NCBI GenBank assembly: GCA_017654855.1
Contig: CM030332.1
Span: 5,332,001-5,396,000 of the forward strand
DNA length: 64,000 bases
Reading direction: 5' to 3'
Source: Podospora anserina
Taxonomy: Eukaryota
The notes under the pieces are model-generated. The model ran no database searches, was not told where the DNA came from, and worked only from the letters and a program-made list of their open reading frames with translations. This document shows positions 37,483 to 56,359 of the stretch, piece by piece (position 1 is the stretch's first letter; the number at the start of each line of letters is the position of its first letter). The position numbers and the translations under genes are program-made.

Positions 37483-38512
37483 TTACAAGCACTGCGAGTA
37501 CCATTGGTTAGAGGCCCTGCAAGTACCCTGCGAGCAGCATGTCGGCCCGTTGAAACTCTGACCTCCGCATTGCCCATATAACGCAGCGCAGTTTCCGCCT
37601 GTCGGCTGAGGGGAGCTCGCCGTGCTGGTAACCAAAGTTGTCGCAGGTGTCGATGTCGGCGTTGGCACGGCGTTGGTGGGGGTTGGGTTGCCAGATCCGC
37701 CTTGGACGTCGTTGATGAACTGGATCAGCTTGGGACCGACTTGTCTCGCGATGAACTGATCACCCTGGCTGTTGGGGTGGACACCATCACCCTCGAGCAT
37801 GTTGTTGGTGAACCCGGCAGCCCGTGAGCAATCTGCGACGACGATGGGGGATTGAGATGTGGTGTGTTGCTGTGCCCAGCCAGGGATGGCATTGTTGACG
37901 GCCTCGATCGTTGCGTCACTCCAGCTTGTTGGGATGAGCTTGTCGATCTGCAACGATATAATGTAAGTACAACCGGCTCTTGACCCTGGGGAAGCATATG
38001 TCACGACTTACAATAACCTTCACCTTCGGATTCGCAGCCCGCATAGCATTGAGCATAGTCGTGTACGAATCCAAGATGCTCTGCACGTTCCGCTTGCCGA
38101 TGTTGACGTCGTTGGTGCCGAGCATGAACTGGACAATATCAGGCTTGGTGCTCTGGACCCAGCCGGCGATGTTGTTCCTCGCAATATCGTACGCTTGCCA
38201 GCCTGAGTGGCCTTCGTGGTTGGGGTCAAAGCCTGCCGGCCTTGAGCACTTTCCCTGGAGATTGCTCATGCTCCCGACAAAGTCGACGTTGTTTGCCAGC
38301 CCGGCGGAGGTGAGTTGAGTCCATACTAGAGGTCTCCAGCAGCTGATCTCAGTGATGGAGTCACCGAGTAGCACTTTTTGGAAGTGTCAGTTTACTGCTC
38401 CTAACAACCAGACAGTGTATAAGGTTGGTAGGTTCCACTTACTAACTTTGACCTTTTGACCGGCCGCAGTGGCGGCAAGGCCAGCAACAATGGTGGAAGC
38501 GAAGAACCTCAT
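37483..38512 (-). CDS. Secreted SGNH/GDSL esterase (CE3-like) with C-terminal CBM1; two introns
   Basis: Signal peptide; LGDSIT, HEGHSG, LGTND, DGVHPN; Pro/Thr linker; YGQCGG..F.GPTCC..GTC...NQWYSQCL. Confidence 0.92.
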
Positions 38513-39416
38513 GGTCACAGAGTACAAATTTCACCTTGGACACGTCTTGTATCTAGTCCAGCAACGTAGCCAGCCGTCATGCCAGCCCATCCTCCAGGGG
38601 GGCGATTTGTTTATAAAGTATTTTTGTCATTGCTGAAATCTTCCGTAGCTCGCTAGCAACGGACATCTGTCGTTCCCAAGTTGTCGAATCAGGCATGGTT
38701 AGTCGACAATGTAGGTAGCAACCGGCTAATAGCTGCACTCGCTCTCGTAGAATCTAAGTACTCGCATTGGAGCGCTTCTGTACTTTTCAACATGCGCGCC
38801 AGTAGGATAAATAGGATCGTACAAAACACACACGACTAACAGGGTCCCACACATAAAACCAGCAAGCGCTCATTCTCACAAGCACATGAAATCAACCTCT
38901 TCTCTTCACCCGACCTGTCAGCGGCGTTCTTGACAACTGAAACATCTTACATGACCAGGTAGATCAAGAATATACGGCACTTCCGTGTGCATCAACTTTC
39001 CACGACATCCTTTAGGCTACTTGCTTATGCCGTGGCTCTTCCCTGATCATCAGGAGTTCAATCAATAACCCCCCTCATCACGGATTCCAGTTCTCCACCC
39101 TGCACCCTGCTCAAATCGATAAACCCCCCTCGTGAATTCCACTCCTCTTTTCTGCCCAAAAGAAGGTCATGTTCAGGCATGTTTGTTGTTGACACTTTCA
39201 ACATCCCCTGAAGTTACTCCGTAAACATCCCGGAAGATAACATTGTACTTAAATTCTTGACTGTGGAATCGCAACCGGTTGACCAACCAGACAAGCCACA
39301 ACCACCACAACACACCCCTTTAAGCCTCTTATAACCATCCAAAAAAAGATGGAGGAAAACGTTTGGAGATAGAATCAGAGTATTTATTATGTATGATTGT
39401 CAAAAAAGACTAAAAA

Positions 39417-39474
39417 ACATACAACACCAGGTATTCCCCAGTGGTCACCCACCTGAGTACTGGTCTGGCGATCA
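39417..39474 (-). pseudogene. 3' half (58 nt) of an interrupted 5S rRNA gene, with oligo-T terminator
   Basis: Reverse complement TGATCGCCAGACCAGTACTCAGGTGGGTGACCACTGGGGAATACCTGGTGTTGTATGT followed by TTTTT. Confidence 0.93.
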
Positions 39475-40639
39475 TGTAGCATGACCGCGAGGATGGGCGA
39501 CTCCAAAAAGGGTATATTGTTTACTTCAAAATGTGGAAGAAAGCGTGCCGCTAAACGGTTCGTGGACGGACAGGCTTGGCCCGTCTCAACCGTTACAGAT
39601 TAGAGAATGCAAACACGCCCACACCGCGGTGTTAAACTGGGTGGAATGTGTTCCAGATGTGCAGATCGCGCCAACAGCTCTCGGCCGGTTTATGATTGGA
39701 TGCAGCTGGCATCAGTCATATCTTTGGCGTCAGTCCCCACCTCCGGCGTAATCACTCCAGTAAGTTTGCTGATTCCGAAGAGATGGTGTTGGTAATAAAC
39801 TGTTGATTGTAGTAACTATGGAAAAGAGCACTGAGAAATGCTGCAAGTTCCAAACAAACCAGCCCAGGTTGGCCCAGGTTTCCTGTGGAGCCAGTTGTGG
39901 CTACCCACACAACAGATGGAAATTTGGATATCTGGTCCGCCTTGAGCAGCGAGCTTTTCACAGTGGATCGCTTCTCCAGATTGATTCTCTGCGCTCCTGT
40001 CATCTTTGGATCTCTCTGGATTACTTTTTACCGGGGAAACAGCTGAACGTGCGTCTTCAGCTTAGTTGCATGTCCTGATATGCGCAACTCGATAGACATG
40101 CCAGGGGGTTAACGCCATCTCGTCGATTTCTTAATAATATTCTTTTGAAACTCAAAGATATTGGTCTATAACCAAGGCTTGAGGTGTTTGTTCCACTTCT
40201 CGGTGCAATAGGCGGGTGGGATAACCTTGTCTTCGTAGCCGACGTAAAGCCCAGATGCCCCCCGGAATGGCCAAACCATATCTGGTCCTGGCAGTTGCAC
40301 TCTGATGCGGTATTCTAATAACGTGGAAGAGGCGCAAGAATTAGTTATTGAGTTCGACCGCAGCGTGTTATTCCTTCTTGAACTAGGTAAAAGGTTAGAA
40401 AGGTTAGGCGGGTAAACCGTGACCTTCGAATTGATAGACTGTCTAAGATAGTTTTATTCGTTATTTCAAATACTGTAACCCTTAGCGTAGAAGGGCTGGC
40501 GAGCATACGTGAAGTTAAGGGTAGTGGATATAATGGTTCTTGTTAGGATTCCTTATAGTTAAGTGGCTGGGGGTCTTATAGTCCTGGCCAAGTTATATTT
40601 GAATCGTAGCTAGGCTACTCGTTAAGAAAATAAAACAGT

Positions 40640-40915
40640 GATAACGCCCTTGTTCAGTCAAAGGAGTACGGAGCTTTGTCGGTTTTGCGAACCACTACCA
40701 AGCATTTATACGCAAGTTCTCGGAGAGAGCTCTTCCACTGACGGCTTTGACTAAAAAAGGGGTTTCTTTCAGTTGAATTCCTCAGTGCGAAAAAGCGTTC
40801 AAGACACTTAAGACACTTCTGATCAGCGCGCCAGTACTCGTCCAGTGGGACCCAGAAAGGAGGATGGCGGTGGACACAGATTCATCGGGCTATGCCGTGG
40901 GTGGGCTTCTGTTAT
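40640..40915 (+). mobile_element. Ty3/Gypsy pol fragment (RT connection / RNase H), degenerate
   Basis: [14 protein letters not shown]...[10 protein letters not shown]...CEKAFKTLK..LISAPVL..WDPER...VDTDSSGYAVGG, with stop and frameshift. Confidence 0.88.
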
Positions 40916-42299
40916 GGCAGCTCACACTAGGCAGTTCTACTCGACAGCTGAGCAGACTCAGTGAAGGGACAAGATAGAGGGTTCATAAAAAAACACAGTT
41001 CCCTTCACATGCAAAATTCCTTTCGCATGCCTATTTGTGAACACCTCGCTCAAGCATACAAATCAGTCATTTTGTTTCTTGTCAACACTTTGCATACTTA
41101 TCTTAATCTCATCCCTCTTTTAAAATTATCCCACTCCGGCTCCCTATTCGTAGCATCCATCACCAAAAGCTCCTCATCACCCATTTGCAGAACCATAATA
41201 AAGCACCCCGCAACAGTCAGTCGACCCTACGCGCCAGAGAGAATTATGCTAGCCGCTGCCGAGTCTCCACGGGATGCCCCTGCCCCTACTATCACCCGAG
41301 GCATCGACATCGAACAGGCCCTCACAAACTTGTGTAAATGGGCTGGGGGTGTGAAATCATTCCATGACTTCGAGCCAGAATATTCACCTATATTCGGATG
41401 AAACCACAGAAAAAGAGCTTATTAACGCACGAGCTGGCTCTTTGGGAGAAGCATGCCAAGGGTAAAGGAGGAGAAGAGGACGAAGGGTTGGTTATGTAGG
41501 TGGCCTTGTTACTGTTCTTGAGGTGCCAAGTCTTTCTTTGCATGATTGGAAGGCTCAATGTGGTTGGTTCTATCCAGTGCCATCCCTGGCAGACCCAGAC
41601 AACAGGCGCTTTTGGGGCATCATGAGAGGCACACCGGAGATTTTCTGGAAGTCTCTCAGGGAGATTGCGGTTATGCTGCACTCTGGTAACTAGGATGCTT
41701 GGTAAGTTTAAGGGTTTAAAGTCTGTGATATGAAGGCTAGGAAGTTTGGATTCTCGCCCTCATGCTGGAACGTCGAGTTACAGAGGAAGAAACAAGGGAA
41801 ATCTTTCAACAACATCGGCCAGACCCAGGTATGTTCAATAATCCGTAATCGTTGAGTGGCTGCTAACAACGGCGAATTAACCGGGGAACACAACAGGGGA
41901 TTTTACATCAGCGAGGATGTCACCCATTGATGGGACAGCCGACCGCTTCCTGGACTGTATGCGCTCTACGACCGCAAGCAAACAGCAGGTGATGAGGGCA
42001 GGCGCCCCAAAAAGGACGGATGGTGTTGTGGTGAAAGGATGTGCTACCGACCTGCGTTGGTGTTCTTTCTGGTCGAGGGAATGTTTTGCCGTTTTCAGAC
42101 TTATCCTGGTCTGGACGGTCACGTGATAAGGCACACGGTTACAAGCAGAGCAACCGGATGGGTAAAAGGCAACCAATGGGGAAGGGATCATGAGTTCTGT
42201 CAATCATCCAGCAATCTGGAGATAGGATCATTGTGGCTTGGAAATGATCCAGAAAAACTATAGTCTATATTTACGGAGGAACTAGCTAGCTTGTAGATA

Positions 42300-42463
42300 G
42301 TTCTGCAGTATGCAATTCACATTGTGAGTTCTCAAGGACCAAGCACTTACGAGAGACAATTGGTGATCTTTGTTGTGTACCTTTTGGCTACACCGAACCG
42401 TTATTCAGAAGCAGCCTTCAACCCAGTATCCCTTTCAGAGGTTCCGATCAGGGGTTCGTCACA
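42300..42463 (+). repeat. 3' part of an LTR, related to the copy at 43520-43753
   Basis: About 90 bp shared: CACCGAACC.TTA.TCAGAAG.AGCCTTCAA....GTATCCCTTTCAGAGGTTC.GATCAGGGGTTCGTCACA; 5' boundary not resolved. Confidence 0.7.
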
Positions 42464-42679
42464 ACTGTAACGGGCTGAGCCCTGAACCCTCGGCCCTGAT
42501 GAAGCTATTCCTAGAACACACACACACAGACCACTACTCCAGAACCCTCTATCACCACGCACTGGCCAACGCGCTCAGCCATATCAGAGGCTCATGTTGT
42601 CAAAACTTCTCTTTCTCTTTTTCTTTTCTTGTCCAAGTTCAGTGTACTCGTAGAGTGGCCTAGCTAGTTGCAATATACT

Positions 42680-43200
42680 ACCTTGATACCATTACAACAA
42701 CCTTGGGGTTCCCGGTTTATCGTATCTCGGGGGGCTACTAGATCCAGGTCCCAGTGTGTTTCCAGTTGTAGAAGAGCTTCCGAATCGGGTTTGTATCGGT
42801 CGTATAAATCCCACAGTGGGTGGTGGTGTAAGCTGAAGTCCCCTGCAAGGACTACCGGGTAGGTTGGTCTGGGTTGTTCGAGCAGACTCCTCGGGAGGGT
42901 CTTGTTGGTAGGAGGATTGTATATCGACCGGATTTCCAGACCCCTTTCTTCACGCCTTCTTCACTTCTACCTTCGCTCCTCCCTTTCCTCCTCCTTTCAC
43001 CTCTTCCTTCACCTCTTCCTTCACCTCTTCTTTCACCTCTTCTTTCACCTCTTCTTTCACCTCTTTCTCCACCCCTCCTTCAATACTTAGAAACCATACC
43101 TTGCACCAGTCTCCCGAAACCTTGTAGTCCCATTGACTGGCATCCAGTCTCTTGGTAATGAATATAGCTGCCCTGCCCTCTGGTTGATATAACAGCACCA
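42680..43200 (-). mobile_element. LINE (Tad-like) APE endonuclease fragment interrupted by a 12-bp minisatellite
   Basis: RAAIFITKRL...W...DWCKVW and GLEIRSIYNPP...VVLAGDFSLHHHPLWD (APE GDFNxHHPxW motif). Confidence 0.75.
42996..43067. repeat. Minisatellite (TTCACCTCTTCY) x6
   Basis: Six tandem 12-bp units, the last imperfect. Confidence 0.9.
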
Positions 43201-43519
43201 ACAATATCGGAATCTGGAAATGGACAATTTCCATTTCCGTTCTTGGACCTGAGCACTCGCCGCTTTAACCTGAGCAGAAGTGGAGATCTCCTGAGAGTGG
43301 ATGAGCAAAGCCCTGAGCAGGGCGAGCAATGGCTGAATCCACCTGAGACCAGGCTACACTAGAGGTAGACCATGCCAGAGCTGTTTCTGGAGCGTACACC
43401 TATTCCACGGTAATTGTTGTTAGCGCTGCAGGGGGCCTTTTGGTGGAAGTTGCTAGAAAATGGAGGGTGGCTAGGGAAAACATGCTAGCGCCCTATACAA
43501 AACACGGCTAATCATGTTT

Positions 43520-43753
43520 TGTCACGACCATGACCAACAGAAAGCATGACCCCCAACAAAAAGCACGTGACCGGTGGGAGACAGCCAATCAGGGGTGGAC
43601 CGACAGACCGAGGGGAACGACCTGTATTCATGGTATCTTGTGTTTACATTGAGTCAATCTTGCTGTGCACTGTTTAGCAGCACCGAACCATTACTCAGAA
43701 GAAGCCTTCAATTGTGTATCCCTTTCAGAGGTTCTGATCAGGGGTTCGTCACA
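43520..43753 (+). repeat. Solo LTR, ~234 bp
   Basis: TGTCACGA...TCGTCACA termini (TG...CA); 3' end shared with the copy ending at 42463. Confidence 0.7.
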
Positions 43754-44291
43754 ATAGGCCTATAATACTGGCCAGGCCAATATCTTACGATGACCCGCAC
43801 TTTGGTTGGAGGGGTGCCGTTTCGAGATGGAATTTGTATAGGCGTGAGTCGATTTTTCGCCGAACGCACCAAAATCGGGGTCAGTCAGATCGGACTCTGG
43901 CTCATCTGTTCGCTCTGGTGTGCGAGACGCTGCGCATCGGTCGGTAGGTATATGATAGAGGTCGAGTACGAACCCTATTACAGAGTCTATTCAGGTGGAT
44001 TACAATTGGCTAGCAATACAATATACGAGGTTACCCACTATACTATCTGTCTACAGTACCTATAAGGTACTTCAGTCCAGTACCACAGCTGTGAGCTTTG
44101 GGTATCGTGCATGAGCCTTCCGTTGCACTAATTACTGTGTGTGTTTACTGTTTACAGGGCCTTAGGCCTGTAAATGGCCATACCTATTTCAATAATAAAG
44201 ACCTTCGAAAACGGCCTCTTTTGTCTTGAAGTCCATCATCAGCTAGATCAACAGTCATCAAGACAAGAGATCAACCCAGCTAGTCGACACC

Positions 44292-45125
44292 ACGGCTCCC
44301 AAGTCTCTCGCCATCACGGCGGTGTACCTTTTCCTCTCTCTTGCTTCCGCAACCCCCGTCACCCTCGAAGCAAGAGATCTCCTGAACCCCATTGGACTAA
44401 CTGCCACGGCCGAGCAGGAGAAATGGTGCCCGGCTCTCGGCTATGACACCTACAGCTGCTACAACACCGTGGCCATCTCCCCGACCGGCCAGCTCAACAG
44501 CGGCCAGGACCCTGGCAAGAGCCAGAACGACATCCTCAGCTTCTGCCACAAAAAGTACTGCCTCACCAAGCACAACATCTACGTCCAGTCCAAGTGCAAC
44601 AACGGCTGGTGCGCCCATATGTACGACTACTACTTCGAGTTCGACTTCGGCATCGGCGGCCGGGAGCACATCGCCGTCTGGATTCAGAACGGACAGCTCA
44701 AGTTCGTCTCGGCTTCCGAGCACGGCAAGTGGAACATCCGCTTCCCTGGGAAGAACTCCAAGATCCGTTTTGAGGGAAGCACTCACGCCAAGATTGTCTA
44801 CCACAAAGATGGTGCTGGTACCCATGCCTTCCGCTATGCGAACAACGGTGATGAGCCTCCTGAGAACCACTGGCAGAGCTGGCGTTGGCGCATTGGTGCC
44901 GGTCTGCTGAAGTTGGACTCGATCGCCGGCAACCTGCGCACTACGCTGTCTCAAAAGGATTGGGGTAAGGCTGAGGTGGCTGTTAGGGACAAGGGCGGCA
45001 AGGCCTGGAACTTTGGCTGGTACTTGGACCGCTCCAGATACCACTGCGTTACCGAGCTCGAGTGCCCCGGTAACCTGGCTACGGCGTTTGATTCTTGGGC
45101 TTGGGTGGAAGGACAGTGGGTGTGA
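44292..45125 (+). pseudogene. Necrosis- and ethylene-inducing peptide 1-like (NLP/NPP1) gene, probably decaying
   Basis: Signal peptide; P.L.YDTYSCYN..AI...G.LNSG, CNNGWCA.MYDYYFE.D, EHIAVW, IVYHKDGAGTHAFR.A, PPENH; ACG in place of ATG; GHRHDWE heptapeptide missing. Confidence 0.85.
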
Positions 45126-45828
45126 TGGAACTACATAGACCAGGTGTTGGAATACAGGGGTTGGAAAGGCGGGATACATGTAGGAACTAGACGTACACAG
45201 TTGTCTTTATCAGCTGGGCCTTTTCTCAGGTAGCCTTCAAATTTGATTGCTTGTGTACTCTAGCCAGGTAACCAATTGGACTGACTTCAACGCATCTATC
45301 CCCTCATCCTCGTGTATTGGTTTCAAAGCGAGGGTAGAGGAAGATTGCCCGCTAACAGGAAGCTGAATGCACATAATTCTCTAGAGATAGGTAGATAGTT
45401 TCCAGTTGACGTAAACACCTATTCTCCAATGGAGCCCCAGGCCCTCCTTGCAACTTCCATACTGTGTAATATGCCCCAGGCACCTCAAATAGAATTGCTG
45501 CCCCTCAAAGCCGCTGGTGGCCCCTGCTTGCAGCTGCACGCCTAGCCAACTGCATCATGCGGATTGTTGTTGCACGCATTCCCTTGGTCTGTGAACTGAC
45601 TCCAGGCAAGGAAATTTGGGGCTGGTTGCGATGTCCGCGCCACTCTTATCTCGGATTTCCCAAATGGCATGCCTAGATTTGGGAGGTACGGAGATTGACT
45701 TTGGGTGGGTGGGATGATGACAGTGGATGAGACTCGGCTGTAGGTATAAAGCTAGCAAGTTCCATCCCATGGAGAGTCCAGAGCTTAGGTGGGTATGAGT
45801 TCAGACTACAGCCAAGAACCAACCTAAA

Positions 45829-46485
45829 ATGAAGACAGCCATTCTTCTCGCCGTCCTGTTTGTCGGGGCCAGCTCCCTTCCTGTCGCTCCATCTCTCGAG
45901 GCCAAGGTATATCTGTCCCTTTCTGTGAGTCACACAGCAGTGTTGATCTGTGCATAGGAGATACAAAACCGCCATGTTCACCCTGCCGGGGCTTGGGAGT
46001 TTCCCACAGTTGATGCCACGAGCACCCGTGCGCAGTGGGTGTCTTCATACGGAAACAAACCCCCAAAGAAGGCCCAGGAGAATGAGCCGACTGTGGATGG
46101 TACGAGCACTCGTGGACAGTGGGTGTCCTCCCACGGCAACAATCCCCCCAAAAAATTTCAAGAGGGCCCCACCGTGGATGCAACAAGCACTCGGGCACAG
46201 TGTGTGTCCTCCTATGGTAACAAACCCCCGAAGAAGGGAGCGTCGTTTTCAGACCATTGGGTAAGTTGCTCGTTGCCTTAGAAGCTACCTCCATACCTAT
46301 AGTCAGTGTGGTTCCAGGATACACGCTAACACCTTCCTCACCAGCTTCCTGTCGGTCCCGGTTACTTGGACCTTGATGCACTCGAGTCTGGCTACCATGC
46401 CCACTTGATGATCATGCACGACTCGACTTCTTGGCTTCAGTCCGGGATGACGGCCATCAAGCGTTTCATGCGCAGGTTCGCTTAA
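45829..46485 (+). CDS. Secreted repeat-peptide precursor (KEP/dikaritin-precursor-like); exons 45829-45906, 45958-46260, 46345-46485
   Basis: Signal peptide MKTAILLAVLFVGASSLP; three repeats PTVD[AG]TSTR[AG]Q[WC]VSS[YH]GN[KN]PPKK; canonical introns keep the frame. Confidence 0.75.
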
Positions 46486-47089
46486 GGCTATGGGACTGCC
46501 AGCCAGTGTTTGTTGGAGGAAGCCACTCGACGGGGTGCTGTACTGCCGGTGCACCGCCTGCTATTCATTGAGGCAATCTGAGTCATAAATGTAGAAGATT
46601 GAAGTGGGATGGTTCTTTCTTTTCCTTCCTTGACCTTTTCGTCTTAACGGTTGATTTGGCCTCGAAGGCCACTGGATGGTTTACAAGGACCAAGCACAAG
46701 GCATCTGGGCCTGAAAAAACACTCACTTTGCTCCAATGATAATATACCTGCCTCATTTAGGTAGCTACTTAGGTACCTACTATCTCACACAACGAGTAAC
46801 ACACCAATACACTGATCTCTCAGCAACTTTTAATGCGGCTGGGCCATTTGACCCCCAAAATTTGGAGTCCAAGCCTACCGCCTTTCAGCCATTCAAAAAA
46901 CAAACCAAGTAGGTGGCGGTTGAGGAATCGAGATTTTGTTGGTTACCTATCATTTGATGGCAAATACAGACACATGCAGTGCTGATAAACAACTTGGACC
47001 CCGCATCAACCAACACTTGGCGAATTTGCTGCAGGTGAATATTCACAATCCCCAAAACACAGCTAAATATTCACTGTGAACCTCTCAAA

Positions 47090-48544
47090 ATGCCCTCTCA
47101 CAATCACGCCAACTACCAAGCTCGGCTTGATTTCGTGCGCAATCTCTTGAATGACCGTTTTTCTCGGGGTAAGATACTTGACGAACCGCAGCGGATTTGA
47201 TGATTAGTCCCGCCAGCTAACTCGACCTAACAAAACAAACTTGACATCTCCCCGGTTCAGTATGACCCCGAGTGCATTTTTGAGTACAACAACTTTGTTT
47301 ACCACGTCTCACTCGCGTCGCCGCTCATCGCGGACCACTCAGACAACAACTGGAATGGCACCTTTCAGCCAGGTACTGTGGCCATTTCCAAGGGCACAAA
47401 AGACCTCGTGGTGCGACTTGGTAATCGTGATATTGAGGGTGTTCACCAAGCGACCCGTATTGAGAACGGAGTAGCAATAACCAACCTGGTCTTGGCGGCT
47501 CTCAGCCATGCCTTCCAGCCATCCATTGTTCCTCGGATTTATGGGTGGGGAAGCGCTGCAGCTGAAGCTGCTCAGGGCTGGATACTGCAGGAGTTCATGC
47601 CGGGGATTGGCGTGGACCAGCCGTTTAGTCAGCAGGATCTTGAGCAGAAGAAGGCACTGTTGGCTCAGATGGCAAAAATCGTCAAAGCCCTGCAGGCCTA
47701 TAGCCTGCCGTCTACGATCACTGGCTACGGAGGTCTGACGTTCAACGAAGGTGGTGAGATCGTCAGTGCAGCTATGCCCACGGTTGGCGCTGGGCCTTGG
47801 CCGTCTTACCAAGCGTCATTTCAATACCGCCTGGACCTGGCCCTCAAAAAGGCTGATTCAAATCCATACATCAAGGGATGGCGAGCCAATGGGCTTCGGG
47901 AGCGCATTGATGCTTTCGTCCAGCGGGGCGTTCCGGCTCAGTTCGAGTCGTTGAGCGATAAGGATGACAAGGTGGTGGTGCACTGTGATTTTAGTAAGAT
48001 TCCAAATCCCAGCACTACAGCTGTGTCAGGCTGCGTTTTGTCTCTGCCGATAGCTGACCCTCCCGATCCAGGCCCAACCAACATCTTATTTGACGAAGCC
48101 TCGGGGCGTATAACCGCCCTCATTGATTATGACTTTTCCTGGATCTCTCACCCCTCTTACGAGTTTCTGCGCTCATTCGATGGTCTCGGGGGCCAATTTT
48201 GAGGCTGGTCCAGCGACGAAGAGAGCCAGGAAGCAGCGTTGAGAGATGCCAAACTCCACGGGTTTCCTGTCTCCCTACCATCCACCACCGAGTCAGACTC
48301 GGGAGTTGATTGGGTTGTTGCGAAGGCCTGGGAGGAGGCATTGGAGGCTGAAGGAGTCAAACGACCAAGGACTATGGAAGGTGTCGATAGGGTGGCTGAC
48401 GTTGACGCAATCCTATGTGCTATTTTGCCATGGCGCGTGACCAACGCCGACATCTTGGCTCGCCAGACTGAGGAGGTTATCATTGAATGCAGAAACAATA
48501 ATGAGAAGCATCTGGACGAGTTGTTGACCCGCCTGGGATTCTGA
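47090..48544 (+). pseudogene. APH/choline-kinase-like phosphotransferase with a premature stop
   Basis: VPRIYGW, WILQEFMPG, HCDFSPTNILFD...ITALIDYDF; TGA at 48200 followed by in-frame continuation to 48544; first intron lacks a clear AG acceptor. Confidence 0.8.
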
Positions 48545-49177
48545 TCTCTGGTACAGTAAGGCAGATAGTCGGTTGGACGTGGTTTAAATGGTCCATGGGA
48601 TCGGACTTCGATGCAGTGGACGCAGAAGGAGGAAAATTGATATTTTATGTGCTCCGCGTTCTGGAAAGGTTTTTTTTATGGATTAATTCCAATAATGTAT
48701 CTTTGGGCTTACTAAAATGAACAGAGATAGACACATGCTACAAAATATACATAGGTAGGCAAGTACAGTGAGGTTGTATCCTCATTTTCCCTTGTGATTT
48801 CGGTATGAAGTTGTGATGGATAGGCACTTTAGCAACCACCGGCTAAATTGTCAACCTTGGAACACACAATTGTGGGTCGAGCACATCTCACTTATGTCAT
48901 GTTGATGTTCTGTTGATGTTATGTTGCTGGAGCGACGAGTATCTTGACTGGAATTGCGGTGAATAAGTCTTTTGCTAGGGGACAGATGGTGATTGTGGAT
49001 GGTGTTGTGAAGGTCCATGATTGTGACCGCGGAGCCACAAACCACTGCACTATGAAGCCACGTTGCATAAAAGCATCAAATCAATCAAACTGCCCAAGCT
49101 CGATCGATCCAGTCGTTATATACGTTCACGCACTGCATGTTGGCCATACCTGTCAGCCAGTGCCGTGATACTGATGA

Positions 49178-49420
49178 CTAGAAGAGGCACTTGTACCCGA
49201 CAATGGCTGCGCCAAGCATCATCAATTCATAGCCCCTGAAGTCAACACGCCCAGCACTGCTCCTGGTTGTCGTGGCAACGGCTGAAGTCCCGCTACTCGA
49301 GGTCGCCCTGTGTGAGGTGGGAGCGGTAGTGATGGAAGAGTTACCGTGAGCTGAGATTGGCATGGTGCCGAGGTCAGGCTCAGTCGCGGTTGCAGTCAAG
49401 GTGACAGAATCATCGTGAGC
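49178..49420 (-). pseudogene. Orphan terminal exon of a Ser/Thr-rich GPI-like protein
   Basis: S/T-rich stretch ending SSAGRV..hydrophobic tail; CTACAG acceptor at ~49421; no upstream exons seen (pogo relic lies there). Confidence 0.45.
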
Positions 49421-49599
49421 TGTAGCTAATCAGCATGGTGTTGAGGCCGGGCTCTGTGTATGTCGACAATATATCCTTCTCCCAGCATGCCCAGTGGTGC
49501 TCACCACTGTGATCTCCACACCGGTTTAATATCAAAAAATTTCGACCTTTCGTTTTATTTTCTTCACAATTCAACCAAAACTACCGCTTTTTTACTATT

Positions 49600-51269
49600 T
49601 CAAAATAGAATCTCTAATTCAAGCGGCCCTTCAATACCTAGAAGAAAACCCGGGAGCTCCAGTGGCACGCGTCGCCCGGGAACATGGCCTTGAACGCAGT
49701 CAGCTTCAATCTCGCCTCGAGGGCCATGGGCCTACCAAAGGGCGTGAGCCACCACACAAGCGTCTGAGTGACCCAGAAGAAGTTGTGATTTGCCGGCATA
49801 TTGATCGCCTTGATGCTCTCAATATGGCAGTACGCCCTGAGTTTATCACAGAGGCAGCAAACCGGATCCTCCTAGCCAGGTGCTCGCGCCAAGAACTCGC
49901 TGATCCCCCTCAGGTTGGACCAAACTGGGCACCCCGCTTCATTCGCCGCCACGGGTATCACAAGCAGCGCCAGAAAACCACGGCGAGCGAGCGGAAGCAC
50001 TCAGAGGATCCCCAGGCCGTTGAAAACTACTTCAACAAGCTCGCTGCCGTCGTCAAAGAGCATGGGTTACAGCCTGAGGACATATGGAATATGGACGAGA
50101 CGGGGTTTCGAAATCGGGGTGGGCAAGAGCCAGCTTATCGTGATCAAGCGCAAGAGAGCTCACTACTTTGCTATTCCTGAGAATAGGGAATCGGCCATGG
50201 CGCTCGAAGCTATCTCGGCCGTTGGGCGCTTTTGCCCACCCTTCTTGGTCTTGGCTGGCCAACTTCACATGACCCAGTGGCACAAGCAGGAGGAAGTGGA
50301 GCCAGAGACTGTGATATCGACCTCCCTCAGTTACTATTCGAATGAGGAGCTTTCTTTGGAATGGCTGAAGCACTTTGACTAGCATTCGAAGAAATCTCAA
50401 CTAGGCGCTTATCGGTTACTTATCATCAATGGGCATGGATCTCATCACACTATCCAATTTATTAAGTACTGTCAAGAAAACAACACCATTTCTTTCGGCT
50501 TACCACTAAATCTTACGCATGTTCTTCAACCTCTTTTGATGCTGTGGTCTTTCAGCCGCTCAAACATTACCATGGCAAGGCCCTAGATGTGTTGGTTCAT
50601 AATGGCCTTACAAACATCACCAAGATCGAATTCTTGGGTATGATCCAGGGTGTGCGCTCACAGGCCTCCAAAAGGCCCATTCTATCGGCTTTCACCAGAA
50701 CTGTCATCTTTCCATTCGATACCTCTGTTGTACTGGTTGAACTGCGGCAGAGGGTTCGGCCAGAGACACCCCTCTCCCACACCCAAACCTCAAGCCCTCC
50801 CCGTCAGCACACCTGTTACCCTCAAGCAGATGAACAAAGTGGCTGATAAGCTGTCGAATTCGCTACCTGACGATCTTTCTGATGAACTTGTTGATGGCAT
50901 GGGGAGGTTCATCAGGGGGTTCCTCACCACGGCTACCGAGCTGGTCCAGACGAAGAGGGGCCTGAGCGCCACATAACTGGCCCAGGCTGTTGCCAGAGCT
51001 CGCTGGGCATCGAAGGGAGGGGGGGCTTAAAATCAGGGGGGGTGCTTACTGTGGCCGATGGGCGGCAAATGGTTCGAAAGAGGGAGGACGAGGCCCTCAT
51101 CAAGGCGAAGAAGCTGGTGGAAGCGGCCGGGCAAAAGGCTCTCAATTTACGTAAGAGGGCTTGGAAAGAAGCGACCAAAGAAGCTCGCAGTTGGCGTACT
51201 ACTGGGAAGCTTAAACCGGCCGAAATTTCTGATGGATCTGGTGTTTTGAAGCGGTTACGGCGTTTTTAG
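49600..51269 (+). mobile_element. Pogo/Fot1-type (Tc1-mariner) transposase pseudogene
   Basis: HTH VAREHGL..S.L..R, CENP-B-like LS..EE..I..I..L, VG.NW..RF..RH, IWNMDETGF, RLLII[N]GHGSH, TH.LQP, VFQPLK.Y; several frameshifts and stops. Confidence 0.92.
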
Positions 51270-51281
51270 TTCAAGAGGTTC

Positions 51282-51843
51282 GATTGATTGATTGATTGAT
51301 TGATTTATTAACGCCCGGGCGGCTAAGCCGAAAGGGCAACTATTACCGATTGAAGCATACACTCCCCAAGATATGCCCTGATCTCCCTAAAGCCCATGCA
51401 AAGTCCGATCTAGCTTATACACTCTTTTTTCCCCTTTCTCTACGTATTCTCGTGGGTTAATAGGATTGTTAGTAGGTTGGCTTGAAGTCGGTTCTCCAAG
51501 TATTCAACGTCCCATCTTCGGCGGCTGAAGCGGTACCTGCTATCTATAGCACGAGGTAATAGGTGTAGGGTCGGTGGAGAGTGGTGGTTGGTCGGTTAGG
51601 TATTTCAGTTGGCCTGCGGTTGGTTCGCGTCGAGTCGGCCCGTGGACATTGCGAACCGAATCGTTGCCCGAACGGTCTTGACGTTCGGAGTCCAGTCTTC
51701 TTTATCCGACGGCGACTTCCCTCCTAGATAGAAGGAAATATTGCCTCTGTGAGTGGTTGTGCGCTGGAGCATCTCTGCTCGGTACGCCGTCCATTTCTTG
51801 CACCGGAAGAGGAAGAGTTCCACTGTCTCTCTCGCTTGTCCGA
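51282..51843 (-). mobile_element. 5'-truncated LINE (Tad-like): ORF2 C-terminus, 3' UTR and (AATC)n tail
   Basis: GQARETVELFLFRC..W..YR.....RGNISFYLGG.......W.PN..TVRATIRFA..TGRL; reverse-complement tail AATAAATCAATCAATC... Confidence 0.85.
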
Positions 51844-51876
51844 GGGTGGCTAGAAAATAACATTGCGGTCAATTAC

Positions 51877-51936
51877 TTGCTTAACTAGGGGAGAGCGGAC
51901 GGGATCCCGTATATTCAACTGCCTATGATCGTATGT
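51877..51936 (-). pseudogene. 5' half (60 nt) of the interrupted 5S rRNA gene
   Basis: Reverse complement ACATACGATCATAGGCAGTTGAATATACGGGATCCCGTCCGCTCTCCCCTAGTTAAGCAA. Confidence 0.93.
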
Positions 51937-52286
51937 GATATGTTGTGCCGGCCCATGGGCTTATAACAGAATGGTATAACCTTAAGTTTGTCTCACGGCT
52001 TGGCTCGAGCTCGGCTATTTCCGTTGTTGAGGTTGTGCTATCACGACTAAGTCCACAAAATAATGTGTGAAGAAGCGGAGAAGGATTATTTCGAACTCGC
52101 CAACGGTTTAGGTGTACACGGAAAAGGAATTTTTCGAAAAAGGACATACTCCTCAGCTCGCTATGAGTGAAATGCTGAAACCCATCCCCTTGTCTGCTCA
52201 ACACCGGCACGCCTCCCATATATACAAAGTCAAACACGTCCGTCTCTTTAGAATCCCTATTATTGATCACCTTAAAAACGGATAAA

Positions 52287-54192
52287 TCAAGCAGAAAACA
52301 AGGCCTTAAGCACCGTCTTCAACCTCCTCCCCCCAGGAACAGTCGCCTTCCCCCTCTCCAACTCCACACCCCCCTCCAACTCCCTCAGCACCCTCCCAAT
52401 CTCCATATACGTCTCCACCGCCCCAATCATCGGCCCCCTCGCCTCCTTGGGAATCCCATTCATTTTCGGCCTCGCCTCATCATACAACTTGAACGCCTCG
52501 CTCAGTAATCTCCTCCTCAGGTTCTCCACATGTTTCCCCCTTGGATGGGCGACGACGTCTTCTGGGGTGAGACCTTCCTCCTTGAGCCAGGTAGTGGGAA
52601 GGTAGACCCTTCCCATCTCGGCATCTACAACAATGTCCCGTGCAATGTTGACATACTGCAGCGCCACGCCCATTGTTCGTGAAACCGACATGAGCATCTT
52701 CTTGCGCTCATCAGGCATCTCTGGCTCGCAGTGCTCGATGATGAGAGCAACGCAGAGTTCGCCTACTGTTCCCGCCACGCATTGGCCGTAGTAGTTGAGC
52801 TTGTCCTCGTCGACAATGGGGTACTTGGCCGACTCGGAGGAGTCATGAAAAGAAAATTGGGAGTCGAGCTCGAAGCCCTCGATGAGTTGGTAGAGAGGCT
52901 GAGAGGGGAGAATGGTAGCTGGGAGATACTTGAGTGCTGACTTTGCCTCGGGTGGGAAAGCCTCGTCGATATAGTCGTTGATCCGGGCTTTGTTGGCTTT
53001 TACGTCGGACTTGTAGTGGAGGTCAAGGAACTTGTAGAGCTTGGTGGTCCAGGACTTGACTTCGGTGCGGGAGGTGGAGTCGTCGACGAGATCATCGGCG
53101 AGGCGGCAGAAGGAGTACCTGGAGAGCTGTTAGTGACATGCTGAGCAAGATGGGAAGGTGGGGTGGACTTACAGAAGAATCAAATCGATGCGAAGACGGC
53201 CGGTAAAAAGCGAGTTGGCCAGGTAGAAGCTTCTGCTCTTTGCCTTCAGCCGAGTCACAGCGTCGGACAGGCCCGCAATCCTTTCGAGATCGTATTGCTT
53301 GGTGTTTGAGAACCGGCTCTGGACCAACATCAAAGGCGTGGGAGACCGAGGCACCTTGGGGAACAGGTGAGGGAAGGCAAAGATGATGGCCAAGTACTGG
53401 TCAAAAACTGCCATGCCGAACACAATGAGGATATTGGTCGCGAGGAAGAAGGTAGCCTCCTCGATGTCAAGGACACCAAACAGACACCATCCCAGCTTCG
53501 TGCCGGACTCAATGGCCCAAGTTCCACGTCCCAAAGCCAGCTCGTCCACGAGCCACAAGTAGACTGTCGGAATGATGATCGGAACCACAGTGGAGGTCAA
53601 GGGCAGGGTTAGAATAAATCTGCCCGCAACAGTAAAGGTCAACAAGGCGAATGGGAAGGCCCATGCCAGAATAAGTCCCAGATAGGTGCCAGGACCGCCA
53701 GTTCTAATCTGGTGAACACCATAGAGCGTCAATGCGACGAGAATGCCCTGTCCGATAACCTTGCCTCTGGCGATCCGTTGCGGTGGGTTTCTCTGGGTGC
53801 TGAGGTACAGAGGGTGGAACAATGGCTTGCTGAGGAGGATGTAGAAGAGCGAGGTGATGTATGTTTGAATCACGAAGAAGAACAGCTCTTCAATTGGAAT
53901 TCCATAGAGACGAGGCCCAATGATGGCGTCTGGCGGGTAGGTCCAAATGTTGCTTCTGATCAAGTATGAGTCCCATGGTAGCGTCGCGAGGAAGGAGACA
54001 ACTATTAGACTCCCAATCTGGAGGAAGTGTATTCGGTGGAATATTGGGTAGGCGATAACTGTAAGCAACGCAGCAAGGGGTATCGTGTATTTTAAATGTC
54101 TAGACACCAAAGTTAGTATATTTACATGATCGTGTCTCGGGCGGCTCAAAGGAAGAGAGCAGAGCTTACACAAGGGCATAATCGTAAGCCAT
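52287..54192 (-). CDS. al-2: Bifunctional lycopene cyclase/phytoene synthase; two introns
   Basis: [63 protein letters not shown]...GRVYLP. Confidence 0.95.
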
Positions 54193-55345
54193 GATGAAAA
54201 GCGTGTTTGAGTGGTCGTGTAATGAGGTTATTCCGGGGTTCTGCAAGCCTTGGCTCGTCCCAAGGGCTCAAACGGTGAAAGAGTAAAGCACGTGTCGATC
54301 CCAACCAAAAAAATGAGGCGTTTACAAGTCAATCCAGCGCGTCATGACAGAAAGTGAGGATTCGTTTGCGGTGAAAGAGAGAGCAAAGCTACACATCCAG
54401 GGGAAAGAAAGGCGGGACCCCAAGCAAAATGAACCCTTTCGTCATCGATCAAAGAAGGGGCCAGCCCTTCGGGACCCGTGGCAGTGTCCGCCCTTTTTCT
54501 TGGAGGATCCATATCTAAGCACTCAAACCCACTGCAACATGTCGAGATAGAAGCGCCAAACAAATCGATTTCGATGGGGGTTGACCCTGGCCTGGCTCTC
54601 ACATCTATCGGACGAACTGCCGCGTAATCCTGATGTCAGTGTAGCTGGGTCCCAATCCGGATGACCCGCATATATTCAGCCCTGATGAGCAAGAGCCCGG
54701 TGACCTGCCAGATGCGGTTCTGGATCGGACGGAGTGCCCTGGAAAGTCAAAAGCGCCGCCGGCAGTAACACTGCCGGAAACAAAAGTACGCCAGAGCGCC
54801 GCTGGCACGGGACCGCATGGGACGGCACTGACAAGAGCGGCTTCGATCTGCGACATGGCGATAGAGCGACAGGACGAACTAGGCCCAAGACAGCAAGGTG
54901 ATCGTGGGTTTGGTGAGTAATTGCTGCTAAATCAAGGGCCAAGACTGGCAGTGACTCCCTCCGATCCAGTTGTCTGGGGAATTCGGAAACAAATGGAAAA
55001 ATGACATGTCCTCATCGCCCGCATCAGGCTGTGATCGTTGATCTTTGAAAACGGTTGTGGATGTCAAAGATCGCACAAACCCCTGCCCCGATCGACACCG
55101 CTGTCACGGCAAAACAAGCAGACTCCGCTTCCAAGCGCTTGGCATCCCACTTTTATCATCAGCCAATCAGAACCAAGGCGCAAATCCTCTTGTCTTGTCT
55201 TGCTCGGCCTCGGCCCGGACGGAACGTGGAAACCGGCACGGCACCGCAATTCAACCAAGCACCGACCCTTAATCAAGCCAACCTTTTTCCTCCGTGTCAC
55301 CTCCGCCGATCGCCGAGATCACAACCGCAACCACACATCCCGAAA

Positions 55346-56359
55346 ATGGTCCCGAGAATACACACCTACCGTCCGCTCCTGCGGCTTGCCCACCGGCAAA
55401 TCCCCGCTCAACCCCGACCAAACCTCGTCGCCGCCGTCGCGTTCTCAACCTCCCGGTCGACCCGGAACCAACCACCACCACCACCACCACCACCACCACC
55501 CTCACAAACCCCCTCCGAACCCCTCCCGGAAACCATCCACATCAGCGACGCCTCCCCTCCCCCTCCCCCACAGCCTCTCATCACCAAAACCATCCCCAAC
55601 CGCCGCCCCAACCGCCGCCGTCTGATCTCCCGCCTCCTCTTCGCCGGCACCTTCCTCCTCCTCGGCACAATCGGCGGCTCAACCCTCCGCCTCTTCATCT
55701 CCCCCCCGACCCCTCCGACCCCCGACACCGACCAAGACAAATACGTCATCTCCGACCTCCACTCCCAAGCCTCCCGCCTCCCCATCGTCCAGCAACTCTC
55801 CTCCGACCCAGCCTGGACCAGCTGGGAAGCCTACAACACCCTCCCCCCCTCCCACCGCTCCCAGCACATAACAGCCCACACCCTCCGCGGCTCCCGCGGC
55901 GTGGGCGGCTACCAGCGCATCTTCCACAACGCCTCCATCGGCGAGCTCGTCTCGGTGATCTTCTTTGGTCCGGCCACCATCGGCTGGCCGGGTGTTGTTC
56001 ACGGGGGGTGTTTAGCCACCATTCTGGATGAGAGCTGCGGTAGGGCAGCGTTTAAGCAATGGGGTGGGCTGGCGGGTGTGACTGCCAAGCTGAATATCGA
56101 ATACAAAAAGGCGACGTTGGCGAATGGGTTCTATATCATAAGAGTAAGACCAAGGACGGAGGAGGAGTTGCCTGAACGTGAGAGGGGGAAGAGGCATTAC
56201 AAGAGCTGGGTGGACGCAGTGATTGAGGAGCCGGCTACGGGGCATGTGACGGTGAAGGCGGAGGCGTTGTTTGTGGGGGGGAAGGGGAATGGGAAGGGGG
56301 AGGGTAAGAAGATGTTTAGTTGGGGGGGAAAGGTGCAGGATGCGCATGCCGAGTTTTGA
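55346..56359 (+). CDS. Hotdog-fold thioesterase superfamily protein, probably mitochondrial
   Basis: GWPGVVHGG.LATILDE..GR, GVTAKLNIEYKK; Arg-rich N-terminus plus one transmembrane segment. Confidence 0.85.
   Translation: MVPRIHTYRPLLRLAHRQIPAQPRPNLVAAVAFSTSRSTRNQPPPPPPPPPPSQTPSEPLPETIHISDASPPPPPQPLITKTIPNRRPNRRRLISRLLFAGTFLLLGTIGGSTLRLFISPPTPPTPDTDQDKYVISDLHSQASRLPIVQQLSSDPAWTSWEAYNTLPPSHRSQHITAHTLRGSRGVGGYQRIFHNASIGELVSVIFFGPATIGWPGVVHGGCLATILDESCGRAAFKQWGGLAGVTAKLNIEYKKATLANGFYIIRVRPRTEEELPERERGKRHYKSWVDAVIEEPATGHVTVKAEALFVGGKGNGKGEGKKMFSWGGKVQDAHAEF

What the first reader, a model, noticed from the sequence alone, without database searches (positions are those of the whole stretch)
39417..51936. 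A 5S rRNA gene split by a 12.4-kb cargo-bearing insertion (candidate 5S-targeting Starship-like element)
Seen: on the minus strand, 5S nt 1-60 lie at 51936-51877 and the final 58 nt plus oligo-T terminator lie at 39474-39417. They are in the right order and orientation. 60+58+1 = 119 nt, the length of the intact copy at 3594-3712. Joining them with one base gives TAAGCAA[C]TGATCGCC, which restores helix II pairing with CAGTTG of the 5' half, consistent with both halves coming from one gene. Everything between is accessory (NLP, repeat peptide, kinase, TE relics), while the flanks are ordinary genes. Established: some Starships, e.g. Voyager of Macrophomina phaseolina, insert in 5S rDNA and carry cargo. 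Inference: this is a site-specific giant-element insertion.
Basis: partly seen in the sequence, partly recalled or inferred. Interest (0 to 1): 0.92.

Follow-up and report, generated by a model that had tools for sequence, protein, structure and literature searches.

The report
Old insertion splitting a 5S gene
A 5S ribosomal RNA gene of the dung fungus Podospora anserina was cut in two long ago by 12.4 kb of inserted DNA, now a decayed mix of transposon relics and two damaged genes, and nothing in it shows that a giant Starship transposon put it there.

Summary
On the minus strand, 5S nt 1-60 (51936-51877) and the last 58-59 nt plus T-run (39474-39416) lie 12,402 bp apart. They have the same orientation and one base is missing. 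Joined, they fold like a 5S RNA.

The window is Podospora anserina chromosome 1. A six-frame Pfam scan of the interval found:
- an NPP1 gene (Pa_1_15230);
- an APH-like gene (Pa_1_15235);
- relics of a pogo/Tc5 transposase, a gypsy-type pol and a LINE endonuclease.

It found no DUF3435/integrase captain. There are no terminal inverted repeats, and no direct repeats or target duplication beyond chance.

Both genes are damaged. The NLP copy forms its own long-branched clade next to the conserved chromosome-5 paralogue.

Protein accession order places the same genes between the same flanks in four other species of the P. anserina complex. All 19 holder runs carry the insert. No empty site was found.

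Verdict: a real, old, fixed insertion into a 5S gene. "Starship-like" is unproven, and its defining features were tested and not met. Interest is modest.

The parts
51877..51936 (-). 5' part of the split 5S rRNA gene (nt 1-60)
   Evidence: 49 of 60 identical to the intact copy; Rfam 30.1 bits.
39416..39474 (-). 3' part of the split 5S gene (about nt 62-120), followed by the oligo-T terminator just below 39416
   Evidence: 46 of 59 aligned columns identical to the intact copy; Rfam 28.0 bits. Junction bridged by contigs in 4 of 4 runs.
39475..51876 (.). Inserted DNA, 12,402 bp. GC 0.503; no overall RIP signature.
40780..40914 (+). Fragment of an LTR-retrotransposon (gypsy-type) pol, RT_RNaseH_2
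   Evidence: E 8.6e-9, residues 455-499 of the frame starting at 39418.
42263..42464 (.). Copy of a short, high-copy dispersed repeat
   Evidence: 99 nt at 84% to 43657-43754; summed word depth of the bin 720-2000 against about 25-105 for single copy.
42664..42960 (-). LINE endonuclease fragment (Exo_endo_phos_2), next to 12-bp tandem repeats at 42940-43082
   Evidence: E 8.5e-5; E 0.012.
43623..43754 (.). Second piece of the same high-copy repeat. In other genomic copies 42321 joins directly to 43623, so here the repeat carries a 1.3-kb nested insertion.
   Evidence: table 5: joint 42321->43623, summed depth 1606-4351 in 4 of 4 runs.
44247..45125 (+). NPP1/NLP paralogue (locus Pa_1_15230), decaying
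   Evidence: No ATG at the position of the homologues' start; four residues missing inside the conserved heptapeptide region; reading frame runs 7 codons past the homologues' end.
46003..46237 (.).
47231..48544 (+). APH-type phosphotransferase gene (PODANS_1_15235) with an in-frame stop at 48200-48202. About 113 conserved codons follow the stop.
49530..51269 (+). pogo/Tc5-type transposase relic (HTH_Tnp_Tc5 about 49785-49967; DDE_1 about 50191-50535), spread over more than one frame
   Evidence: 12-23 stops per frame. No terminal inverted repeats.
51270..51876 (.). Low-copy repeat with RIP-like composition, next to the 5' half of the 5S gene
   Evidence: TpA/ApT 0.97, (CpA+TpG)/(ApC+GpT) 0.90; 2-6 contigs with differences at 51362-51716.
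37483..38386 (-). Flank: CE3 (GDSL) esterase with CBM1, PODANS_1_15210
52287..54227 (-). Flank: bifunctional lycopene cyclase/phytoene synthase (al-2-like)
3594..3713 (+). Intact 5S gene used as the reference copy
   Evidence: 87.7 bits.

Best explanation
A once-functional 5S rRNA gene of a distinct sequence variant lay between the CE3 esterase gene and the al-2-like gene on P. anserina chromosome 1. Mobile DNA opened it at nt 60/61 before the P. anserina species complex radiated.

I think the present 12.4 kb was not delivered as it now stands. It is most likely a repeat nest that grew and decayed in place:
- a first insertion that left no target duplication and cost one base;
- later nested transposon insertions (gypsy-type, LINE, pogo/Tc5, a short high-copy repeat);
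- the arrival of a duplicate of the chromosome-5 NLP gene and of an APH-type gene;
- then deletions and point mutations.

The 5S gene is dead: the break lies in the internal promoter region (textbook knowledge, not tested here). Both carried genes are damaged, and nothing in the interval can now move it.

Shown: the split, the content, the damage, one nested insertion, and the conserved gene order in sister species. Inferred: the order of events and the stepwise growth.
For: Split gene.

Relics of three transposon classes, plus a short high-copy repeat of unknown class, and no transposition gene intact.

At least one nested insertion is visible. The high-copy repeat is contiguous elsewhere in the genome (joint 42321->43623 in 4 of 4 runs) but is interrupted here by 1.3 kb that holds the LINE fragment.

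The genome paper states that P. anserina transposons and segmental duplications are nested together, and that 15 of 87 5S genes are not full length (PMC2441463, passages).

The NLP copy:
- It is a paralogue of Pa_5_1900 (82% identity).
- Copies of this type form one clade (100/100) on a stem of 0.12, with end branches of up to 0.09. The chromosome-5 type has end branches of 0.002-0.01.
- All eight chromosome-1-type rows that cover the region lack the same four residues there; the other two have a wider gap.

The APH gene has a stop where 3 of 3 full-length homologues have Arg.

Gene order esterase, one gene, NLP, (APH), al-2, thioesterase follows from consecutive protein accession numbers in P. 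bellae-mahoneyi, P. pseudocomata, P. pseudopauciseta and P. pseudoanserina. That such numbers run in genome order is my knowledge of GenBank practice. The order esterase ...991, NLP ...993, APH ...995, thioesterase ...997 in P. pseudocomata fits it.

GC and RIP indices are ordinary.
Against: - The sequences directly at both junctions match no transposon family and show no termini, so the first inserted element is not identified.
- Starships also accumulate transposons, so a nest does not exclude one.
- The APH gene has no paralogue in P. anserina among the 195 hits, so it was moved rather than duplicated. A cargo-carrying element would explain that more simply.
- 5S genes are a very small random target (87 genes of about 120 bp in 36 Mb). 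That favours a targeted element over a chance hit.
- No empty site was seen in any relative, so insertion is inferred from the gene's anatomy alone.
Confidence: 0.4

Rival explanations
1. Relic of a 5S-targeting Starship (or another tyrosine-recombinase cargo element). It integrated in one step at nt 60/61 carrying the NLP and APH genes. It then became fixed and lost its captain gene and most of its length through deletion and transposon insertions.
For: [quoted passage not shown] Enterprise itself is a Podospora element.
- The insert carries protein-coding genes that came from elsewhere. The NLP paralogue is on chromosome 5. In Apiosordaria backusii the APH homologue lies on a different contig from both flank genes.
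- The absence of a target-site duplication is compatible with recombinase-type integration.
Against: - No DUF3435/integrase signal in six frames at E <= 0.1, although transposon relics of 45-115 residues were detected in the same scan at E between about 1e-11 and 1e-2.
- No other domain appeared in that scan, so none of the usual auxiliary Starship genes.
- No TIRs.
- No direct repeat, whereas 5S-targeting families have DRs of 6-16 bp (test p = 0.79).
- 12.4 kb against 27-393 kb.
- No polymorphism.
- Voyager's site is 20 bp from the 5S start, not 60.
Confidence: 0.3
2. One-step capture of unrelated DNA at a chromosome break inside the 5S gene. End-joining repair or a segmental duplication filled the gap, with no transposase or recombinase involved.
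For: - One base lost, no target duplication and no element termini at either junction.
Against: - The interior is a mosaic of unrelated pieces rather than a copy of one donor locus.
- Only the NLP gene has a known paralogue.
- The homology to the chromosome-5 protein ends near the start codon.
Confidence: 0.12
3. Two independent truncated 5S pseudogenes, or a rearrangement joining two loci, that only look like halves of one gene.
For: - 15 of 87 5S genes in P. anserina are partial.
- In Apiosordaria backusii the esterase (contig 1.79 Mb) and al-2 (contig 2.97 Mb) are not on the same contig. So the two flanks were not neighbours in that outgroup, or were separated there.
Against: - The break points are complementary to within one base. 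Strand and order are right. The helix II pairs that span the halves match (GG with CC).
- The insert ends show no trace of the missing 5S halves (p 0.66-0.99).
Confidence: 0.05

Closest known systems
5S-rDNA-targeting Starships (Voyager of Macrophomina phaseolina; Enterprise-, Arwing- and Voyager-family elements)
   Same: Large gene-carrying DNA sitting inside a dispersed 5S gene of a Pezizomycotina fungus, at an internal position that kills the gene.
   Different: - No captain recombinase, no DRs or TIRs, no copies elsewhere in the window, no empty site.
- 12.4 kb instead of 27 kb or more.
- Breaks at nt 60/61, not at 20 bp as for Voyager.
- Fixed across a species complex, and its genes are decayed.
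Psi-63 5S pseudogene of Neurospora crassa, interrupted by the Fot1/pogo-class element Punt (Margolin et al. 1998; recalled from memory, paper not seen)
   Same: A dispersed fungal 5S gene split by inserted transposon DNA that was later inactivated. A pogo/Tc5-type relic is present here too.
   Different: As I recall it, a single roughly 1.9-kb element heavily mutated by RIP. Here it is 12.4 kb of mixed content. The pogo relic does not reach either junction, has no TIRs, and the interval has no overall RIP signature.
Nested transposon / segmental-duplication islands of P. anserina (Espagne et al. 2008, PMC2441463)
   Same: Mixed relics of several transposon classes together with a duplicated gene, weakly affected by RIP.
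   Different: The paper says 5S and tRNA genes are the exception to nesting. Here the nest sits inside a 5S gene.

Membership tests
Starship | Captain tyrosine recombinase (DUF3435) near one end | tested here: not met
   Six-frame Pfam scan of 39417-51937 with stops as X, E <= 0.1. Only NPP1, APH, HTH_Tnp_Tc5, DDE_1, RT_RNaseH_2 and Exo_endo_phos_2 were found.
Starship | Defined ends: direct repeats matching the target (6-16 bp in 5S-targeting families) and/or short TIRs | tested here: not met
   No terminal inverted repeats. The best shared word at the junctions, TGAYCGC, is no better than shuffles (p = 0.79).
Starship | Presence/absence polymorphism with an empty site | tested here: inconclusive
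   All 19 holder runs carry the insert. Four of four sister species are occupied by accession order. The outgroup A. backusii lacks synteny of the flanks. No genome DNA of relatives could be read.
Starship | Size of tens to hundreds of kb with cargo genes | tested here: not met
   12,402 bp with two or three damaged genes. The published range is 27-393 kb.
Starship | Insertion in a preferred niche such as 5S rDNA | tested here: met
Fot1/pogo (Tc5-type) DNA transposon as the splitting element | TIRs at both junctions and a TA duplication | tested here: not met
   The relic lies at 49530-51269, 600 bp from one junction and 10 kb from the other. No TIRs; no duplication.
Helitron | Rep/helicase gene; 5' TC and 3' CTRR ends between host A and T | tested here: not met
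   No Rep or helicase domain. On the + strand the insert starts TG and ends TTAC; on the - strand it starts GT and ends ACA.
LTR retrotransposon or LINE as the splitting element | LTR pair or a poly-A tail at the junctions | tested here: not met
   Self-BLAST finds no direct repeat between the two ends. There is no A-run at either junction. The pol and endonuclease fragments are internal.
5S rRNA gene (Rfam RF00001) | Full-length match above the gathering score | tested here: not met
   The halves score 30.1 and 28.0 bits against a cut-off of 38. Together they cover the model apart from one base. It is a split pseudogene.

The most novel reading that the evidence does not exclude
The interval is the stripped-down remnant of a previously unrecognised 5S-targeting cargo element of Podosporaceae, with a target at nt 60/61. 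It delivered an NLP and a kinase-like gene to the ancestor of the P. anserina species complex and then lost its recombinase. If so, some of the other 14 partial 5S genes of P. anserina, or 5S genes of related genera, should be broken at the same base. Intact captain-bearing relatives should exist.
Probability: 0.2. Interest if true: 0.55.

Novelty: new member of a known kind. Interest (0 to 1): 0.3.

Why it matters
Dispersed 5S genes are a favoured landing site for giant cargo transposons in filamentous fungi. P. anserina is the species in which the Enterprise element was described.

A fixed, decayed insertion in a 5S gene, shared by a whole species complex, would be a dated example of what such an insertion looks like long after it stopped moving. 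That only holds if its origin can be shown.

As it stands, it is one more disrupted 5S pseudogene in a well-studied genome. It also flags two locus annotations as likely pseudogenes: Pa_1_15230 and Pa_1_15235.

Tried and rejected
- Whole genome of the window: not held. No census of other broken 5S genes was possible.
- Public runs: no run held only the flank half of the probe. The four runs laid gave long contigs with 0-7 other letters over the long pieces, apart from one X19 piece that is a paralogue. So they are essentially one strain background and carry no population information.
- The 'joints' 39462-39474 -> 51877-51884 have only 27-54 letters per side. Most have multi-copy depth; one has single-copy depth. 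I read them as other intact 5S genes, not an empty site.
- A loose end at 51884 first looked like a second broken 5S. By eye (no script) I could not distinguish it from a diverged 5S variant or pseudogene like the loose end at 39474, and I dropped it.
- The row at 39486 first suggested several copies of the right junction. Its depth equals 2-3 overlapping single-copy contigs, so I dropped that reading too.
- Apparent short repeats at the junctions (AATTGA.., TGAYCGC, GCGGTCA) and 5S-like words inside the insert ends: not above shuffles.
- Testing neighbourhood in Neurospora through locus tags of the esterase: no Neurospora hit among 35 proteins.
- Helitron, LTR, LINE and pogo as the splitting element: see the membership tests.
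- Literature: (2, 1 and 3 papers) found nothing on this locus beyond a table entry for Pa_1_15230. Searches failed because a search term was too short.
- Supplementary tables of the genome paper (transposons, segmental duplications) and of the starfish paper (target coordinates in 5S) were not seen and may bear on this.


Full report
**What is there**

Rfam finds one complete 5S gene at 3594-3713 (+). With relaxed thresholds it also finds two partial matches on the minus strand, at 51936-51849 and 39484-39416. The sequence read directly shows 5S nt 1-60 ending at 51877. The remaining 58-59 nt start at 39474 and are followed by a T-run.

BLASTN of the interval against the whole window matches only these two pieces to the intact copy (83.6% and 86.9% over 61 nt). 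A global alignment leaves one column empty between the halves. With C or T at that position the joined RNA folds into the canonical three-armed shape, -34.9 or -32.6 kcal/mol against -36.3 for the intact copy.

The split copy differs from the intact one at 11 of 60 and 13 of 59 positions, partly through paired changes in helix II that span the two halves. So it was a distinct 5S variant and not a pile of random mutations.

Complementary break points, the same strand and the right order make two independent truncations very unlikely. The first and last 100 nt of the insert show no trace of the missing halves (p 0.66-0.99 against shuffles). I take the split of one gene by 12,402 bp of inserted DNA as established from the anatomy. 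It is not confirmed by an empty site.

**Where it is**

Protein look-ups name the locus. The APH-type frame at 47231-48202 clusters with PODANS_1_15235. The NPP1 frame is locus 1_15230. The esterase is PODANS_1_15210. The thioesterase frame at 55061-56356 belongs to the cluster of locus 1_15250. The window is therefore Podospora anserina S mat+, chromosome 1.

The flanks are ordinary genes: a GDSL/CE3 esterase with CBM1, and an al-2-like lycopene cyclase/phytoene synthase.

**What the insert contains**

I read all six frames with stops as X and scanned them against Pfam (single frames). The hits were:
- NPP1 (44.2-45.1 kb);
- APH (47.2-48.2 kb);
- HTH_Tnp_Tc5 and DDE_1 of a pogo/Tc5-type transposase spread over more than one frame (49.8-50.5 kb);
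- a 45-residue RT_RNaseH_2 piece of a gypsy-type pol (40.8-40.9 kb);
- a LINE endonuclease piece (42.7-43.0 kb).

Nothing else reached E 0.1. There was no DUF3435, no integrase and no helicase. The absence of DUF3723, patatin, ferric reductase and NLR domains matters because I recall them as the usual auxiliary Starship genes.

A short repeat at 42263-42464 and 43623-43754 is very abundant in the genome. In other copies 42321 is joined directly to 43623, so here it carries a nested 1.3-kb insertion that includes the LINE piece.

GC is 0.50 and the RIP indices are ordinary. The exception is the 600 bp next to the 5' half of the 5S gene (TpA/ApT 0.97, second index 0.90), which is also a low-copy repeat. 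No terminal inverted repeats exist. The best shared word at the two junctions is at chance level.

**State and history of the two genes**

The NLP copy:
- It is 82% identical to the chromosome-5 gene Pa_5_1900, whose 90% cluster also holds Cercophora samala and Triangularia setosa.
- In the alignment, all eight chromosome-1-type rows that cover the region lack the same four residues inside the conserved heptapeptide region. The other two rows have a wider gap there.
- The window's copy has no ATG where the homologues start, and it reads past their stop.
- The P. comata copy is out of frame for about 20 residues.
- In the tree the chromosome-1 type is one clade (100/100) on a stem of 0.12. Its end branches are several-fold longer than those of the chromosome-5 type.
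- This is the pattern of a duplicate released from constraint before the species complex split.
- A published table lists Pa_1_15230 as 168 aa and not induced (1.18-fold), against 8.66-fold for Pa_5_1900 (PMC3689799, passages).

The APH gene has an in-frame stop at 48200-48202 where 3 of 3 full-length homologues have Arg. About 113 well-conserved codons follow it. Its nearest named relatives are in Podosporaceae (85%, 84% and 75%), then about 56% elsewhere. No P. anserina paralogue appears among 195 hits, of which 120 were listed.

**Age and fixation**

GenBank protein accession numbers, which to my knowledge follow genome order within a submission, give the following orders:

| Species | Esterase | NLP | APH-like | Thioesterase |
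|---|---|---|---|---|
| P. pseudocomata | ...991 | ...993 | ...995 | ...997 |
| P. pseudopauciseta | ...809 | ...811 | not found | ...815 |
| P. pseudoanserina | ...304 | ...306 | not found | ...310 |
| P. bellae-mahoneyi | ...011 | ...013 | not found | ...016 |

Four of four species thus have 4-5 proteins between the flanking esterase and thioesterase. An empty locus would have one, al-2.

P. comata has the chromosome-1-type NLP and the thioesterase four numbers apart.

In Apiosordaria backusii the esterase, al-2 and the APH homologue lie on three different contigs. That outgroup offers no empty site, and it shows that the flanks are not neighbours everywhere.

Within P. anserina, all 19 runs that hold the probe (half insert, half flank) hold at least 0.90 of its words, across 6 studies. 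None holds about half. The four runs laid are one strain background.

**Comparison with Starships**

According to the passages I read, 23% of 222 curated Starship insertion sites are in 5S rDNA, at five or more internal sites, with direct repeats of 6-16 bp (PMC11162782). Voyager inserts 20 bp from the 5S start, and Starships of the 2022 survey measure 27-393 kb (PMC9156397).

The present case shares the niche and the presence of genes. It fails every other feature that I could test: captain, ends and size. Polymorphism was not seen, but that test is incomplete.

The captain is unlikely to have merely decayed beyond recognition, because older-looking relics and the NLP pseudogene are still easily detected. 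It would have to have been deleted.

**Reading**

I favour a nest that started with an unidentified insertion and grew in place (0.40). This fits the nested insertion that is actually visible and the description of P. anserina repeats in the genome paper (PMC2441463, passages).

A stripped Starship-type relic is a serious second (0.30). A 5S gene is a tiny random target, and the APH gene was moved rather than copied.

Capture of DNA at a break (0.12) and coincidental truncations or rearrangement (0.05) follow.

I found no paper on this locus. Supplementary tables that might list it were not available.

Noticed in passing
window 39486: All contigs covering this place in 4 of 4 runs read T where the window has C, at single-copy depth per contig. 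This is either a difference between the reference and the sequenced strains or a reference error, 12 nt inside the insert.
   Followed up: partly
window 41436-41678: Six G-to-A differences within 243 bp in run X19 only (one contig, depth 39). This is a RIP-like cluster in one strain, in a stretch that is single copy in the window.
   Followed up: no
window 42263-42464, 43623-43754, perhaps 39787-39911: A short dispersed repeat of very high copy number (summed word depth up to 6782 against about 25 for single copy in X13). One contig elsewhere in the genome joins 43753 to 39787. The family was not identified.
   Followed up: partly
window 48200-48202: The annotated protein PODANS_1_15235 (328 aa) ends at a stop that interrupts an otherwise conserved frame of about 437 codons. 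It is probably a recently inactivated gene.
   Followed up: yes
window 44247-45125: Gene models for locus 1_15230 differ widely between species (168, 223, 223, 234, 270 and 304 aa), which fits a pseudogene annotated as a gene.
   Followed up: yes
window 1525-1598 and 3594-3713: A tRNA gene (62.7 bits) and the intact 5S gene lie 2 kb apart near the start of the window.
   Followed up: no
window 46003-46237 and 42940-43082: Two tandem-repeat arrays inside the insert: three units of 81-84 bp, and about seven units of 12 bp.
   Followed up: no
Apiosordaria backusii proteins P0240, P0295, P0103: The orthologues of the two flank genes and of the APH gene sit on three different contigs (1.79 Mb, 2.97 Mb, 126 kb). 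This neighbourhood has therefore been rearranged within Podosporaceae.
   Followed up: partly
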